The position numbers are program-made. 64,000 bases of DNA from Octopus sinensis. Lineage: Eukaryota. Shown here in pieces: positions 24,001 through 60,000 of this stretch. The DNA lies in contig NC_043008.1 in assembly GCF_006345805.1 (NCBI RefSeq), positions 48,608,001 to 48,672,000 on the forward strand, given 5' to 3'. Every line of letters starts with the position of its first letter. The stretch's first letter is position 1.

Positions 24001-27000
24001 AATAAAATGGATATTCTTCCAAACCACACGGTTCTGGGTTCAGTTCCACTGCATGGCACCTTGGGCAAGGGAATCTTCCAAGTCCTCTCCCCACCCAACA
24101 CTTTTTTTTCCTATTCGTTTACTACATGTTGTTTTGCACCTATTACACTATTTTGTTTTTTAATTTTTCTGATCGAGTGTAAACGTTGAGCTTTCGAATC
24201 CTCTAAGTTCGATCGCGTGAATTTTCCAAGTCCTCTCCCCACCCCACCCCGTTCGCTAGCGCACATTTTCTTTTTTTTTTTATCATAATCGTTTAGTACC
24301 CATTATTTTATACCTAATGCACTTTCTCTTTTCTTTTTTGTTTTTGGTGTCTGGGTGTCGAGTCGGGTTACTGGATCCGCACCCCACCCACCCTCCGTCA
24401 CAAAAATTGAAAAAAAAAATGTCTATTAGGTGTAAAATAATGCGTAGTAAACGAATATGAAGAAAAACAATTGCGCCGACGAACGGGGAAGTGGTGAGAG
24501 GCCTCGGAACGTTCCCGATGGGAATTTTCCGAGGCCCCTGCCCCCCTCCCGTTCCCCAGTGCGCATTTTTTTTTTAATATTCGTTTCCTACATGTTGTTT
24601 TACACCTATTACACTATTTTTTTTCTTTTTTTTTTTTGCTCGGGTCAAACATTGGAGGTAAACCCGCCCCCCTCTATTTTCATTATTTATTTGCAGATTT
24701 TCTATTAGTTCTATTTTCATTTCTCTATATTTTTTTAGTGTTTACTTTCGTAACAAGTAAAATCAAAATATTAATAAAAACCAACACTGGAATCGGTTTT
24801 GGTCGACGAAACCATTGAGCAACGTCGCAGTTAAACGACTGAAACTGGTGGGAAAAAAACAGACTGGATTATTTAAAATTCATTAATTAATTTTTTTTTT
24901 TATGTTCCCCAAATGAATAATTAACGCTGAATATATTATGTTAATAATTAAAGGTTTCTGCTTCCGTTAAAAGAGTTCTCGTTCCGTTTCGACTGGAGGA
25001 GGTCGTCGTTGTTTACGTTTTTGAATTAAGGAAATCAATTAATTTTAGATTCATTAAAACCTAATTAAGGAGAGATGCCTGTCTATTTATGGCTGTAATA
25101 ATGATGATAATTATTATTGAGATGCGTTGGTGTAAGGAAGGTTGAGAGAGATGGTCATGGAGGGAGATTCCAGTTAATTGCAGTGTCTAAGTCCACCAAA
25201 ACCCGTTTCCTTCTTGTTCCTGCGTAAATCTTGTTGTTTAGCAAAAGAGAGTTTGGTCAATGTTGGAACTGTGTCGAATAGAAACAACAGACATGGCATT
25301 GGGCCTTAATTGAGATAATTAATGGACCTTAATTGTGACGGGTCTGACCCTTTCCGTGGGGCACCGCCCCCTCCTCCTCTTCTGATATTATTCGAATTGG
25401 TTCCACATTGTTTATGTAAGTACCATTCCATCTTTTATTTCTGTTGGATCCATCTCTTTACATTATGTTAGATTGATGTCTGTGGAAATGGACGGACAAA
25501 CATCTCCGCTTTTACCTCGATATTCTCACATCTTTGTCGTTGTTTAGTCAAAAGTTTGGGTGTCGGTTAATAGACTTAAGGTACCCTTAATTCTGGTGAC
25601 CAGATGTTGTCCTTCGATCTTCTTTGGGGTATTTATAATTGTAGATATAACAGATGTCTTATTCCTATTTGGTTGAGTATCTCGTGTTTGGGTGGAGTGA
25701 GAGAGAGAATTAAATTTAATGAGAAAATTTTGGTAAAGATTTTGGAGAATCGGTCGTCTGTGTGGAATATAAAGTTGTACATAATAAAGGAATTATACAT
25801 CTAATCAGTTAGAGTTAGGGTTATGGGTGGGAGAAAAGGGTTTCTGTTATCTTCAGAAATGTAAACAAAGCCACTTGCGGTACCTATACCGAAGGATCGC
25901 CTTAATTTTATATTTTCAAAACATTACTACACACACAATGTATGTTTGTATGTAGAGGCTGAGTTAATCGTTGAGGTGATATTATTTCGACAGAAAATGC
26001 AATGATTTCGTGTTTCTATTCTTCATTGTTTTAGTCTTGGTATAGAATCGCCGATCAACCATTCATTGCTATCGTTGCTTCATTCAGACACGATTCGAAT
26101 CTATTTCGTTTGGAAATGATATCGGAATTAAAATTCAGAAGAACCACAGTTCTTCACAATTTATTGAAGTTTGTAAATGAGGGAGAAGGGAGGCAATTAG
26201 TAAGTGGATGCGCACTCCCTTAATTAAACATCACACAATGTGTCGGTATTATTGCGAGGGATGGCGGGACTGAGCTGCTGGAACAAGAGCCAAGTATTCG
26301 CTTTCAGACTTCATCCAATTCTTCAATGATGCAGGACCTCCACAAAGACAAATATTTCCTTGTCACCAGCCCTTGGCATTGTCATCATTTTCAGTAAATT
26401 TAGCATTACACCTGCCGAGATTGGTGGTTTTACAATCCGGGTCTGTGTGACCCCTAGGGGTCTACATATACAAAATAGTAAATTGGGAACCCACAGTAGT
26501 ATTTTAAGGGTTCATGAAAGCAAAAAAAAAGTTATGTTAGATGAATTCATTGCAAGAAACAGCCTGGTTTCCTTCTTTGATTGTTTTACGTAGTTGAGCC
26601 CCTGTGTTCCAGCCCCTGAAAGATCTTCTCTCAGAGAATGCTTTTACAAACTTAAACAAGTGAATGTTCAAAACTGCAAAAGAGGAATTTTAAAAGAAAT
26701 ATCAATAAAACCAGTTTTTGAACAATGAATGGCTTGGTGGTGGGTGAGTGGGAGTAAAATAATAATCAACAGGGTCCATAGATAAAAAATGGTTGAGAAC
26801 CACTTCCTTAGATTGCCATTAAACTTGAGAAATATCTTTTACTGAAGCTGTAACATGATAAGATGATGTAGTTTGAGGTTCTATGATTCAAAAGAAAGTA
26901 AACTTTTACACTCATCTCCAAACTCTTGAATGTCAGACTCCCAGATAAGCTGTCACTGCCTCACGAAGAAGGAAAAAAGCAAGAAATTGAGTGGTGGTTT

Positions 27001-57000: not shown

Positions 57001-60000
57001 TGTAGGGATTTTAACTTGGAACACAAAGAGTCGGAACAAATACGACAAGGCAACCAAACTTACAAACTAATAGTGGTTTTATCTCTAATTTAATATAATA
57101 TATATGTATATATATATATATAGTTATTTATATGTTGATATTGTCCCTGTTTCGCAAGACAGGGCATTCTTTCGATATAGAATCCCTGTGATAGTTGTCA
57201 AAAGACATTCGATTCAGAAATATATTCAACAAAAGAAACATTCAACAATTTTGTCTTTTCCTTGATTTTGCCGTGTCTCTATAACATAGAATTGATTGAT
57301 ACTTATTGATTTGTCACAACTAAATGTTTAAATTGATCAAATAAAGAATTACTTTTTATGACATTAAAACAGGAAACAGCTCTAAGTGTTAAAAGAAAGC
57401 TTCCCGTTATATCTACAATTATAAATACCTTGAAGAAGATGGAAAGACAAAATCTGGTCACCAGAATTAAGGGTACCTTAACACTATTAACCCTAACCCA
57501 AACTTTTGACTAAACAATACAAAACAACGACAAAGATATGAGAATATCGAGGTAAAAGCGATGTTTGTCCGTCCATTTCCACAGACATCAATCTAACATA
57601 ATGTAAAGAGATGGATCCAACAGAAATAAAAGGATAGAATGGTACTTACATAAACAATGTGGAACCATTTCGAATAATATCAGAAGAGGAGGAGGGGGCG
57701 GTGCCCCACGGAAAGGGTCCATTAATTATCTCAATTAAGGCCCAATGCCATGTCTGTTGTTTCTATTCGACACAGTTCCAACATTGACCAAACTCTCTTT
57801 TGCTAAACAACAAGATTTACGCAGGAACAAGAAGGAAACGGGTTTTGGTGGACTTAGACACTGCAATTAACTGGAATCTCCCTCCATGACCACCTCTCAA
57901 CCTTCCTTACATCAACGTATCTCAATATTAATTATCATTATTACAGCCACACACACACACACACATATATATATATATATATATATGTATATATATGTTT
58001 AGGTTTTAATTTAATCTCACTTCTTATCTTAATTCGTCGACGACGTAAATCGAAACGGAACTGGAACTCTTTTACCGAAACAACTGCTGCCAAATTAATC
58101 GATAGTTTTGATATTTTAAAAACTGGTACAATTTAAGTTGTGTTTCTGTCAATTAAATTTTGTATCGCAATCGGTAAACTATAACGACGTTCATTTATTT
58201 CTTTACTACCCACAAGGGGCTACACACAGAGGGGACAAACAAGGACAGACAAACGGATTAAGTCGATTACATCCTTTCGGGGTATATGGCAGGTTTGGTA
58301 GCCTTCAACTAACACTATCTCCTCCAAGACCCTGCGGCGCAAGTTGACCAAAATTGACAGTATGATAGAAGAAGGCTTGCTCTTCCTTCCGTAGAATATA
58401 AAATTCAAATCGGACCATGTTAACAACAAAAATTATTTACACCAAAAAGGCACTTTTTTTCTATGAAAATCCCTATTCTTTTACGATTTTTTTAGTGCTG
58501 TGTCGCCATTTTTCGGTGTATTTCAACCAGAAAAATGTTCACTTAAAGAGAATAACAAGATACTACATAATGAAAATTTTTTACTTTTCAAAAATTCCAA
58601 TTCTAAAGGGTCGAAAAGAAAACAAACCCGAGCAACGCCGGGCGATACTGCTAGTATTATATATATATATATATATATATATATATATATATATATACAC
58701 GCACAATAATACCCCGTTTAACGTAACGTCCTTTTCGGCTTTCATCATCATCATCGTTTAACGTACGCTTTCCATGCTGGCATGGGTTGGACGGTTTGAC
58801 TGAGGACTGGCGAACCAGATGGCTGCACCAGGCTCCAATCTGATCAGGCAGAGTTTCTACAGCTGGATACCCTTCCTAATGCCAACCACTCTGGGAGTGT
58901 AGTGGGTGCTTTCAGAGTGGTTGGCGTTAGGAAGGGCATCCAGCCACTCTGAAAGCACCCACCACACTCTCAACTCATAAATTTTCCAGATTTTTTTTCA
59001 TAAGAAGCTTCCTACCATCATTTCCAAGGCCATGATGAAATAAAAATTGAGAATATCCTCGTCAAAACAGAGAAAATCCAATTTATAACCATCTTTTATA
59101 GTCTATTAATATTCTATTGAAATGATGCCATGTTCCAAAATCTCAGGTTTTATTTAGTTTCATACTTATTACAAATGTGCCAAAAAACTCATGTCCCTGT
59201 GACTGGTACTTCTGGATTTAGCATGGTCTGAAAACACTGCAAAATTGACCTTTGCTACAAAATAGGCTTTACATAAATATCTTAAAAATTGCCACAAGAT
59301 CGTTTTCTTTCCAAGAACCTGCAAAAAAAAAAAAAAAAGGCAACTGCTGTACCATGGCCAGTATTAATTTGTGTAATTTGAAGATGATTATCACCTCAGT
59401 TTTACAGATATAACATTGCAAATATGGTTAATTATTCATTTAGGGTAATTAGGCAAGATTTTAACCAATTTGCTGACCCTTCAAATTGTCATATTTCCTA
59501 AAACATTCATCAAAATTCCACAAATGAGCCATCAAAATGTTTCTTTTTGGACGCTCTCCACGAAAGAGAACAGCAGAAATTAGAATTTTACATATTTTTA
59601 AAAATTCATAGTGATACCTGTTAAAAGATATCTGATCTGTTCCACATAGAGACGGGGTCTACTTAGGGCAGACCCTATCTCTCCTGTTCATTTTCCATGA
59701 TCATTAACCACTCATGACTTCCTGGTTGCTTTACAGTTTGGACACTGAGGCCTTCGGAAGCCACCTGAATTCCTTTGGCACCATGATGCTTCATTGCATT
59801 ATAGGTTACCATTTGTCAGATTTCAGACTCTGCTCAGAAACTGGGATGCACCCTGTTACTTGTTATGATTCGTGGGTGCCAGCTCAGGCTGTTTGGCCAC
59901 CTTGCTTGATTTTCTGGGTTAGACCCTGTTCTCTTAATTGAGGGTCCAGCTAGATTGATGGCTCATGTTGGTTGTCCACATGCTATGTGGTTATGGCAGA

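What the first reader, a model, noticed from the sequence alone, without database searches (positions are those of the whole stretch)
24925..58075. ZNF paralogs with homogenised 5' modules but divergent finger arrays
Seen: each of the three ZNF genes has the same ~550-650 bp upstream block (A vs B: ~5 mismatches in ~540 bp by eye) and the same ~290 bp acceptor/UTR block. The intervening introns (~2.7, ~0.6, ~1.8 kb) look unrelated and the coding regions differ in finger number and sequence. This is the reverse of the usual pattern after duplication. Inference: a common promoter/leader cassette is kept uniform by gene conversion or selection while the DNA-binding arrays diversify, giving a constant-leader/variable-array system. 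Identical leaders could also permit alternative splicing of leader C onto exon B.
Basis: partly seen in the sequence, partly recalled or inferred. Interest (0 to 1): 0.8.

Follow-up and report, generated by a model that had tools for sequence, protein, structure and literature searches.

The report
Zinc-finger paralogs sharing near-identical leader modules
Three neighbouring zinc-finger genes carry almost identical non-coding front ends but old, very different finger arrays, most likely because the front ends were recently copied between the genes, a pattern already known from other clustered gene families.

Summary
Three fingers-only C2H2 arrays (A on the + strand, B and C on the - strand) each lie behind the same two non-coding blocks.

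- **Upstream block:** about 730 bp. Its core of about 470 bp differs by 6-10 substitutions per pair (K2P 0.013-0.023).
- **Leader block:** about 300 bp, starting at a splice acceptor (K2P 0.04-0.05).
- **Spacers and 3' flanks:** no homology between the loci.
- **Fingers:** 67% identical on average between genes, best pair 86%, median dS about 1.2.

In collinear alignments identity steps abruptly from 93-100% to 42-75%. For B-C the step lies inside a decayed finger that carries shared stop codons. The blocks tolerate indels of up to 25 bp. Their flanks are mosaic: A-B 5' flank K 0.25, A-C 3' flank K 0.14. This favours recent non-allelic exchange (gene conversion or recombination) over constraint or a plain transposon.

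One new point: B's upstream block sits in an 816-bp insert bracketed by a 20-nt direct repeat (19 of 20 identical). At least one cassette therefore arrived by insertion.

Promoter activity, splicing, genome-wide distribution and the test against orthologues could not be checked here. B is frameshifted. The closest precedent is the mouse V1R promoter islands. The finding is real but of a known kind; interest is moderate.

The parts
24923..25651 (+). Upstream block of gene A (putative promoter and leader exon 1). The near-identical tract with B is 25018-25558.
   Evidence: Profile hit. A-B: 5 mismatches in 539 nt. Three-way alignment.
25416..25421 (+). Candidate splice donor GTAAGT of A (exon would end at 25415). 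It is identical in all three copies.
   Evidence: A 25-mer spanning it occurs exactly 3 times, with 0 expected by chance. A second candidate donor lies near alignment column 873. No RNA evidence.
25652..28280 (+). Spacer (putative intron) of A, unrelated to the spacers of B and C.
   Evidence: No hits at word size 7. No ORF with a recognisable product among the 28 ORFs of at least 50 aa. One 56-nt match elsewhere in the window.
28301..28600 (+). Leader exon-2 block of A. It starts right after a pyrimidine tract plus AG and ends at A's ATG.
   Evidence: K2P to B and C is 0.04-0.05. Identity drops at about 28600.
28601..29260 (+). Gene A coding sequence: 219 aa, 6 C2H2 fingers (28763-29251), stop at the E codon of the last linker.
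   Evidence: The Atlas holds this protein letter for letter.
51269..51288 (-). 5' copy of the 20-nt direct repeat that brackets B's upstream block.
   Evidence: 19 of 20 identical to 50433-50452. The exact 17-mer occurs only at these 2 sites. 0 of 100 shuffles reach 20 nt.
50453..51268 (-). 816-bp insert of B that holds its upstream block (profile hit 51253-50538). The candidate donor GT is at 50760-50759. An AATAAA lies about 20 nt before the 3' end.
50433..50452 (-). 3' copy of the 20-nt direct repeat. Next to it, 50406-50426 is complementary (19 of 21) to 51273-51293, so the uninterrupted site would be a palindrome.
   Evidence: (D1, I1, I2).
49552..50019 (-). B leader exon-2 block plus a decayed finger with stop codons. 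The AG acceptor is shifted 8 nt relative to A and C. It is 93-100% identical to C per 60-nt window.
48340..49551 (-). B finger array: 3 degenerate units, 8 in-frame fingers, a tandem duplication of 167-nt period (169 nt identical, 48814-48646 and 48647-48479) with one A missing near 48647 (frameshift), then 3 more fingers.
57406..58115 (-). Upstream block of gene C. The candidate donor GT is at 57649-57648. A (TA)n(TG)n microsatellite replaces part of the 5' portion. There are six indels relative to A and B in the core.
55172..55622 (-). C leader exon-2 block (from the acceptor) plus the same decayed finger as in B. It carries a 25-nt deletion relative to A and B.
54217..55107 (-). Gene C coding sequence from its first ATG: 296 aa, 10 fingers, same terminal stop position as A.

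Best explanation
**What it is.** A, B and C are members of a lineage-specific family of fingers-only C2H2 zinc-finger genes, and their arrays are old. Each array exon is preceded by a two-part non-coding 5' module.
- The upstream block carries a conserved GTAAGT donor. It is inferred to be the promoter and/or leader exon 1.
- The leader block begins at a splice acceptor and abuts the fingers. It is inferred to be leader exon 2.

**How it got this way.** The modules are nearly identical because they share very recent ancestry through non-allelic sequence exchange between paralogues. This means gene conversion or unequal recombination, with end points inside the blocks' flanks and inside finger-like sequence at the leader/array junction. 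In at least one case (B) a whole 816-bp cassette was inserted. The arrays were left out of the exchange, so they keep their old divergence.

**Shown and inferred.**
- Shown: the block structure, the divergence contrast, the step-like break points, and the direct repeat around B's cassette.
- Inferred: promoter and splicing function, conversion as the mechanism, and co-regulation as a possible consequence.
For: 1. **Divergence contrast.** The upstream core has K2P 0.013-0.023 and the leader block 0.041-0.052. Against this, the 236 between-gene finger pairs have mean identity 0.669, a maximum of 0.859, third-position identity 0.541 and median dS 1.19 (defined for 149 of 236). For A-B, core against third codon positions of the collinear fingers gives Fisher p = 8e-35; core against its own 5' flank gives p = 2e-13.
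2. **Step changes in collinear, almost gap-free alignments.** B-C runs at 0.93-1.00 per 60 nt down to B ~49584 / C ~55204, then 0.42-0.75 through the array. A against B or C breaks at about 28600. The longest identical runs are 134 (B-C), 129 (A-B) and 51 (A-C) nt. These were reached by 0, 0 and 2 of 5000 permutations.
3. **The tract covers dead sequence.** The identical B-C tract includes a dead finger with shared in-frame stop codons. Its profile positions also hit real fingers. Constraint is therefore an unlikely cause there.
4. **Indels are tolerated.** The blocks carry 6 gap events (40 columns) in C's core against 6 C-specific substitutions, and a 25-nt deletion in C's leader.
5. **Mosaic flanks of intermediate age with pair-specific end points.** The A-B 5' flank has K 0.245, then 0 mismatches from column 236 to 386. 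The A-C 3' flank has K 0.142. B-C is nearest only in the pseudo-finger segment.
6. **Copy count.** All 3 copies of each block in the window lie 5' of an array in the array's orientation. Dispersed repeat families in the same window are 70-93% identical and not linked to arrays.
7. **Precedents.** Promoter homology islands plus an acceptor island in mouse V1R blocks, with conversion suspected (PMC1955453, abstract and passages). Regional conversion above 99% in fugu protocadherins (PMC1852091, passages).
Against: - No orthologue or outgroup was available, so conversion cannot be formally separated from extreme constraint.
- The leader block starts exactly at the acceptor in all three genes (B is shifted by 8 nt). 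An exon-precise edge is more natural under selection on the exon than under random tract ends.
- Two separate blocks with unrelated spacers would need separate exchange events.
- The GC enrichment expected from biased conversion is absent in the leader block (GC 0.28) and weak in the upstream core (0.39-0.40 against 0.35-0.36 in the spacers).
- B's cassette has a direct repeat that looks like a target-site duplication. This points to insertion rather than conversion for that copy.
- Only three copies could be examined.
Confidence: 0.55

Rival explanations
1. **Mobile leader cassette.** The upstream block is a discrete unit of about 0.8 kb that is moved by a retrotransposon's machinery. It could be a polyadenylated RNA made of leader exon 1 plus the start of the intron. 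It is installed upstream of zinc-finger arrays, and the near-identity reflects recent copying from a master copy rather than conversion.
For: - B's block lies in an 816-bp insert bracketed by a 20-nt direct repeat, 19 of 20 identical.
- The exact 17-mer occurs only at these two sites, against 0.07 matches expected at up to 2 mismatches. 0 of 100 shuffles reach 20 nt.
- The site without the insert reads as a palindrome (I1).
- An AATAAA lies about 20 nt before the insert's 3' end, and the repeat is A-rich at its start.
- All three copies begin within about 35 nt of one another.
- A LINE-type reverse-transcriptase fragment is present in the window.
Against: - A and C have no flanking repeat above chance: 12 and 11 nt, reached by 24 and 64 of 100 shuffles.
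- Divergence along the element is mosaic, not uniform: core 0.013-0.023, flanks 0.14 to above 0.6.
- There is no poly(A) tail, no terminal inverted or long terminal repeats, and no Rfam match.
- No copy lies away from an array in 64 kb. Three chance insertions in the right place and orientation would be improbable.
- It does not explain the leader exon-2 block.
Confidence: 0.2
2. **Purifying selection.** The blocks are a functional promoter and leader (for co-regulation or an RNA-level function) and have been kept unchanged since an old duplication.
For: - The leader block's edge coincides with the acceptor.
- The donor hexamer is identical in 3 of 3 copies.
- CpG observed/expected is 0.63-0.70 in the core against 0.34 for the window.
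- Shared promoter architecture and a conserved first exon are known for zebrafish FiNZ zinc-finger genes (PMC10547256, passages).
Against: - About 99% identity over about 470 contiguous bases, including 150 nt past the GTAAGT, with dS about 1 in the arrays, would be ultraconservation.
- Yet C carries 6 indels in the core and a 25-nt deletion in the leader.
- The B-C tract covers a dead finger with stop codons.
- B is frameshifted.
- CpG observed/expected in spacer C is higher still, at 0.91.
Confidence: 0.1
3. **Recent duplication with fast arrays.** The whole genes duplicated recently, and the finger arrays then diverged extremely fast through positive selection or finger shuffling.
For: - Arrays do turn over: B holds a tandem duplication of 167-nt period in which 169 nt are 100% identical.
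- 23 of 27 fingers have distinct contact-residue signatures.
Against: - Spacers and 3' flanks share no homology at all.
- Third-position identity between genes is 0.54 and median dS 1.19. For the closest finger pairs dN is 0.09-0.16 and lies below dS in all but the A3-B5 pair (dN 0.14, dS 0.22).
- Fingers are as different within a gene (mean 0.671) as between genes (0.669).
Confidence: 0.04
4. **Assembly artefact.** The identity comes from collapsed or mis-polished paralogous sequence.
For: Nothing direct. B's 1-nt frameshift at the junction of a perfect duplication could be a consensus error.
Against: - The copies differ by private substitutions and indels.
- They sit in unique flanks, in two orientations, 6-26 kb apart.
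- The identical runs are only up to 224 nt long.
Confidence: 0.03

Closest known systems
Mouse V1R gene blocks: promoter homology islands (PMC1955453; abstract and passages read)
   Same: There is an upstream non-coding island of about 500-1000 bp at the transcription start. A second island covers the acceptor and the coding exon, with low-homology sequence in between. Gene conversion was proposed as the homogeniser so that paralogues compete equally for factors.
   Different: In V1R the coding exon is conserved too, and promoter substitution is at best comparable to coding. Here the non-coding modules are 10-50 times less diverged than the arrays. Transcription starts were mapped there and not here. 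The additional files of that paper could not be seen.
Regional gene conversion in fugu and zebrafish clustered protocadherins (PMC1852091; passages read)
   Same: Identity above 99% is confined to one part of tandem paralogues, next to a divergent part that carries specificity. There is an abrupt boundary.
   Different: There the tract is coding (the 3' part of the variable exons) and shows raised GC3. Here the tracts are non-coding and the GC signal is absent or weak.
Zebrafish FiNZ zinc-finger genes (PMC10547256; passages read)
   Same: Hundreds of clustered zinc-finger paralogues share a first exon. One morpholino is predicted to hit 447 of 684 genes. They also share a promoter architecture, while the arrays vary.
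   Different: The FiNZ first exon is coding and holds the start codon. Here no conserved ORF is seen in the blocks, and the start codon is not shared (ATG in A, ATA in B and C).
Mouse KRAB zinc-finger cluster 10 (PMC5363842; passages read)
   Same: Recent tandem zinc-finger paralogues in one cluster.
   Different: The pattern is the opposite: the gene units are highly homologous but the promoter regions are 'markedly divergent'.
ZF271-like / APEZ fingers-only expansions in Hemiptera (PMC6444547; passages read)
   Same: The proteins are made only of C2H2 repeats and linkers. They sit in tandem clusters with differing gene structures and frequent pseudogenes. The Atlas's nearest cluster for the first 40 residues of C is named 'zinc finger protein 271-like'.
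   Different: No statement on shared leaders in the passages read. No kinship with the window's genes was tested.
lola / mod(mdg4)-type loci with constant 5' exons and alternative zinc-finger 3' exons (recalled, no call)
   Same: The idea of one leader joined to many arrays.
   Different: Those loci have a single, coding constant region used by splicing. Here every array has its own copy of a non-coding leader.

Membership tests
C2H2 zinc-finger array genes, fingers-only class | Tandem C-X2-C-X12-H-X3-H units of 28 residues joined by TGEKP-type linkers | tested here: met
   Pfam zf-C2H2 and zf-H2C2_2 with E 1e-37 to 1e-77 in all 3 ORFs. 27 regular fingers at 84-nt spacing.
C2H2 zinc-finger array genes, fingers-only class | No other protein domain | tested here: inconclusive
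   Only zinc-finger-type families were hit in Pfam. A's 56 N-terminal residues had no usable Atlas hit. The N-terminal parts look like decayed fingers. Coding exons further upstream cannot be excluded without RNA data.
C2H2 zinc-finger array genes, fingers-only class | 5' untranslated exon(s) spliced to a single exon holding all fingers, as in human 8q24.3 genes (PMC2865497, passages) | not testable with these tools
   A conserved GTAAGT and a pyrimidine tract plus AG are present. There are no transcript data.
Regional gene conversion / concerted evolution in a tandem family | A tract of near-identity with abrupt ends inside otherwise collinear, diverged paralogous sequence | tested here: met
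   (runs of 134, 129 and 51 nt, reached by 0, 0 and 2 of 5000 permutations).
Regional gene conversion / concerted evolution in a tandem family | Different segments support different nearest pairs (mosaic) | tested here: met
   A-B is nearest in the 5' flank, A-C in the 3' flank, B-C in the pseudo-finger segment. The cores are star-like.
Regional gene conversion / concerted evolution in a tandem family | Paralogues more alike than orthologues in the tract | not testable with these tools
   No eukaryotic genome collection was available.
Regional gene conversion / concerted evolution in a tandem family | Raised GC in converted tracts | tested here: not met
   Leader block GC 0.28. Upstream core 0.39-0.40 against spacers 0.35-0.36 and the window 0.40. 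This is a frequent but not obligatory feature.
Dispersed transposable element / retroposon | Target-site duplication at each copy | tested here: inconclusive
   Present at 1 of 3 copies (B: 20 nt, 19 of 20). A and C are at chance level.
Dispersed transposable element / retroposon | Copies in unrelated genomic contexts | tested here: not met
   3 of 3 copies in the window are 5' of arrays, in the same orientation. Genome-wide this is untested.
Dispersed transposable element / retroposon | Terminal structures (inverted or long terminal repeats, poly(A) tail) and uniform divergence | tested here: not met
   No shared terminal repeats. No poly(A) tail, only an AATAAA in B. Divergence is mosaic.
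Constant-5'-exon loci with alternative zinc-finger exons (lola type) | One shared, coding 5' region spliced to alternative array exons | tested here: not met
   Each array has its own leader copy. There is no ORF common to the blocks (translations).

The most novel reading that the evidence does not exclude
The upstream block is a mobile 'leader cassette'. It is a transcribed first exon with its donor (and perhaps an internal promoter) that is retroposed and lands, or is retained, upstream of zinc-finger arrays. In this way it arms or re-arms arrays with a common leader and common regulation. B would be a freshly armed copy, and conversion would keep the older copies in step.
Probability: 0.15. 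Interest if true: 0.7.

Novelty: new member of a known kind. Interest (0 to 1): 0.4.

Why it matters
If the reading holds, it shows that in a fast-expanding zinc-finger family the regulatory and leader part and the DNA-binding part evolve as separate modules. The front end is kept common by copying between paralogues, and once by insertion. The arrays are left to diverge. That would give a whole cluster one expression programme. It would also make phylogenies and age estimates from 5' regions misleading.

It further offers a concrete, testable case for how promoter or leader uniformity arises in clustered families. For V1R genes that question has only been raised as a speculation.

The practical value is modest, because the pattern is already known from other tandem families.

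Tried and rejected
- **Known RNA genes.** Rfam found 0 matches at gathering threshold in the whole window and 0 at E <= 1 in B's insert. ARAGORN found 0 tRNA genes. The blocks are therefore not a known RNA gene, a SINE head or a hammerhead-bearing element.
- **Coding exon in block or spacer.** None of the 28 ORFs of at least 50 aa in 24900-28620 looks like a gene apart from the array.
- **Hidden homology of spacers and 3' flanks.** Blastn at word size 7 found none. 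The spacers also have almost no copies elsewhere in the window.
- **Flanking duplications around A's and C's upstream blocks, and around the three leader-plus-array units.** All were at chance level.
- **More block copies or more arrays in the window.** None.
- **CpG content as a promoter sign.** Inconclusive. The core is at 0.63-0.70, but spacer C is at 0.91.
- **Atlas look-up of the N-terminal parts.** No domain. A's protein is held letter for letter and C's is not.
- **Literature.** Searches found no paper describing homogenised non-coding leaders in front of divergent finger arrays. The cephalopod C2H2 paper PMC12513265 has 0 occurrences of exon, UTR, promoter, gene conversion, intron or upstream.
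- **Not used.** The prokaryote-only genome collection, the phage, plasmid and E. coli collections, structure prediction and complex prediction were not used because they do not bear on the question.

Full report
**What is in the window.** The window is AT-rich and has no N. It holds three open reading frames made of C2H2 zinc fingers.
- A: + strand, 28580-29260, ATG at 28601, six fingers.
- B: - strand, 49559-48540.
- C: - strand, 55155-54217, first ATG at 55107, ten fingers.

A and B converge on a 9-kb array of a 34-bp satellite. C lies upstream of B on the same strand. Pfam finds nothing but zinc-finger families.

The stretches in front of the regular fingers are decayed fingers. A tblastn with C's protein reaches back to 28634, 49682 and 55302. 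The Atlas features of C's first 40 residues point to zinc-finger clusters.

I do not know the organism and did not take the sequence for human. No eukaryotic genome collection was available. Nothing could therefore be checked outside these 64 kb.

**Check of the observation.** It holds in every particular.
- The upstream block aligns A 24929-25558 with B 51247-50618 at 95.7%, and A 25090-25651 with C 57949-57406 at 90% with gaps.
- A profile of the block finds exactly three full copies: 24923-25651, 51253-50538, 58115-57406. A profile of the second block finds exactly three as well.
- The second block aligns A 28303-28602 with B 50025-49730 at 94.7%, and B with C over 474 nt at 92.2% with gaps.
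- The spacers between the blocks and the 3' flanks share nothing at word size 7.
- In 20 simulated windows the longest self-match was 20-42 nt.

**Anatomy of the blocks.** In the three-way alignment the upstream block has a core (columns 313-795, A about 25090-25558). The pairs differ there by 6, 8 and 10 substitutions (K2P 0.013, 0.018, 0.023). There are 12 substitutions in all, spread star-like (2 private to A, 4 to B, 6 to C). C also carries six gap events covering 40 columns.

Outside the core the pairs behave differently.
- A-B stays at 0 mismatches for another 62 columns upstream. It then drops abruptly to K 0.245.
- A-C continues downstream at K 0.142 for about 100 nt, then stops.
- B is barely alignable downstream of the core.

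A GTAAGT hexamer in an identical 25-mer is present in all three copies. A second possible donor lies about 230 nt further on.

The second block starts, in A and C, directly after a pyrimidine tract and AG. B uses an AG 8 nt further on. Upstream of that point the three sequences are T-rich but not alignable. The leader stretch of about 300 nt has K2P 0.041-0.052.

A parts company with B and C exactly at its ATG, where B and C read ATA. B and C stay 98% identical (4 differences in 177 columns) for a further ~210 alignment columns. That stretch is a dead finger with the same in-frame stop codons in both.

I examined each putative exon on its own.

**The arrays.** I cut 27 regular fingers by coordinate and compared all pairs.
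- Between genes (236 pairs): mean identity 0.669, best 0.859 (A3-B5), third-position identity 0.541, median dS 1.19 (defined for 149 pairs), median dN 0.30.
- Within genes: the mean is the same (0.671).
- For the closest pairs dN is 0.09-0.16, and it lies below dS in all but the A3-B5 pair (dN 0.14, dS 0.22). The fingers have therefore been under purifying, not runaway, selection.
- 23 of 27 fingers have distinct contact-residue signatures.
- A and C end with the same stop at the E codon of the last linker. Their last fingers are 83% identical. This gives an 'old' A-C distance of about 0.2, similar to the intermediate flank values of the upstream block.

B has a tandem duplication with a period of 167 nt. 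In it 169 nt are 100% identical and a single A is missing at the junction. This shifts the frame near 48647. Either B is a very young pseudogene or this is a consensus error.

**How the contrast arose.** Collinear, almost gap-free alignments from the leader through the arrays show steps rather than gradients.
- B-C runs at 0.93-1.00 per 60 nt and then at 0.42-0.75.
- A against B or C steps down at about 28600.
- A runs test in the manner of Sawyer's GENECONV (method recalled) gives longest identical runs of 134, 129 and 51 nt. These were reached by 0, 0 and 2 of 5000 permutations.

Such heterogeneity could also come from constraint. Three things speak against that.
- The blocks tolerate indels of up to 25 nt.
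- The B-C tract covers dead coding sequence.
- The near-identity runs 150 nt past the GTAAGT.

A plain transposon is unlikely for three reasons. Divergence is mosaic. No terminal structures are shared. All copies sit in front of arrays, while the window's dispersed repeats are 70-93% identical and lie elsewhere.

A recent whole-gene duplication is excluded by the unrelated spacers and flanks and by dS.

I therefore favour recent non-allelic exchange, by conversion or recombination. The older tracts are visible as flanks of intermediate divergence.

Points against this reading are as follows.
- No orthologue test was possible.
- There is no GC enrichment.
- The leader block has an exon-precise edge.
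- Two blocks would need to be converted separately.

**An unexpected feature.** B's upstream block lies in an 816-bp segment (51268-50453). It is bracketed by a 20-nt direct repeat, 19 of 20 identical.
- The exact 17-mer occurs nowhere else in the window, against 0.07 matches expected at up to 2 mismatches.
- 0 of 100 shuffles of the flanks give 20 nt.
- Next to the 3' copy lies a sequence complementary (19 of 21) to the DNA beyond the 5' copy. The site without the insert would thus be a palindrome.
- An AATAAA lies about 20 nt before the insert's 3' end.

This looks like a target-site duplication of the length made by LINE-type machinery (recalled). A and C show nothing of the kind. The leader-plus-array units show nothing of the kind either.

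B's insert has a core like A's but flanks 25% or more diverged from A's. Its source was therefore another family member whose core was already homogenised. Insertion adds to the need for exchange (or constraint) in the core; it does not replace it.

**Comparison with what is known.**
- **Closest precedent: mouse V1R gene blocks.** They have an upstream island of 500-1000 bp at the transcription start, a second island at the acceptor and coding exon, and low homology between. Gene conversion was suggested as the homogeniser (PMC1955453, abstract and passages).
- **Fugu protocadherins.** Regional conversion above 99% lies next to divergent specificity-bearing sequence (PMC1852091, passages).
- **Zebrafish FiNZ zinc-finger genes.** They share a first exon and promoter type across hundreds of paralogues (PMC10547256, passages).
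- **Mouse KRAB zinc-finger cluster 10.** It shows the opposite pattern: similar genes, divergent promoters (PMC5363842, passages).
- **Gene layout.** Untranslated 5' exons plus one finger exon is standard (PMC2865497, passages).
- **Fingers-only clustered families with pseudogenes.** These are described in Hemiptera (PMC6444547, passages).

Supplementary files of these papers were closed and may hold relevant alignments. My four searches found no description of homogenised non-coding leaders before divergent finger arrays. That covers only the open-access library.

**Verdict.** The finding is real and statistically solid.
- Different histories for the modules and the arrays: yes.
- Conversion: likely.
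- Selection for uniformity and a 'system': not supported.
- Promoter and splicing: untested.

It is a new member of a known kind, namely regionally restricted concerted evolution in a tandem family. The one twist worth following up is the inserted cassette at B.

Noticed in passing
36651-45673: A 9-kb tandem array of a 34-bp unit (about 267 copies, 94% matches) with strong C-over-G skew. It lies between the convergent genes A and B.
   Followed up: partly
21620-22795 and 22767-23942: A tandem duplication of about 1.15 kb at 99.4% identity, about 1 kb upstream of A's block and starting at a (TA)25 microsatellite.
   Followed up: no
20942-21143 / 21319-21520 and 53418-53567 / 53648-53797: Two close inverted-repeat pairs: 202 nt at 95%, and 150 nt at 92% with an 80-nt loop. 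Both are foldback or MITE-like. The second lies between C and B.
   Followed up: no
15499-18734: About 1 kb of codon-like simple repeat (runs that read as T, P or H), then a tandem repeat at 16905-17233, then a reverse-transcriptase C-terminal fragment with a zf-RVT match (17595-18734). This is a decayed LINE-type element.
   Followed up: partly
820-1230, 7713-8179, 13990-14324, 30541-30880, 34579-34788, 46902-47271; and 7498-7659, 14707-14946, 35146-35348, 58742-58912, 61321-61509: Two dispersed short-repeat families at 70-92% identity. They served as an internal yardstick for what ordinary transposon copies look like in this window.
   Followed up: partly
16488-16837 and 58282-58635: A 354-bp inverted match at 93%. 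One copy lies about 170 bp upstream of C's block and the other next to the LINE fragment.
   Followed up: no
48479-48814: B's perfect internal two-finger duplication (period 167 nt) with one A missing at the junction. It shows array turnover by unequal exchange, or it is an assembly slip.
   Followed up: yes
29258-29260 and 54217-54219: A and C end at the same position, a stop in place of the E of the TGEKP linker. Both are followed by a decayed finger. This is a shared derived trait of otherwise diverged arrays.
   Followed up: partly
25300-25338 (and the same in B; one copy in C): A 16-nt direct repeat rich in TAATT cores inside the upstream core. C's 21-nt deletion removes one copy. A G/C-rich box follows about 30 nt downstream. 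These may be factor-binding sites; this was not tested.
   Followed up: no
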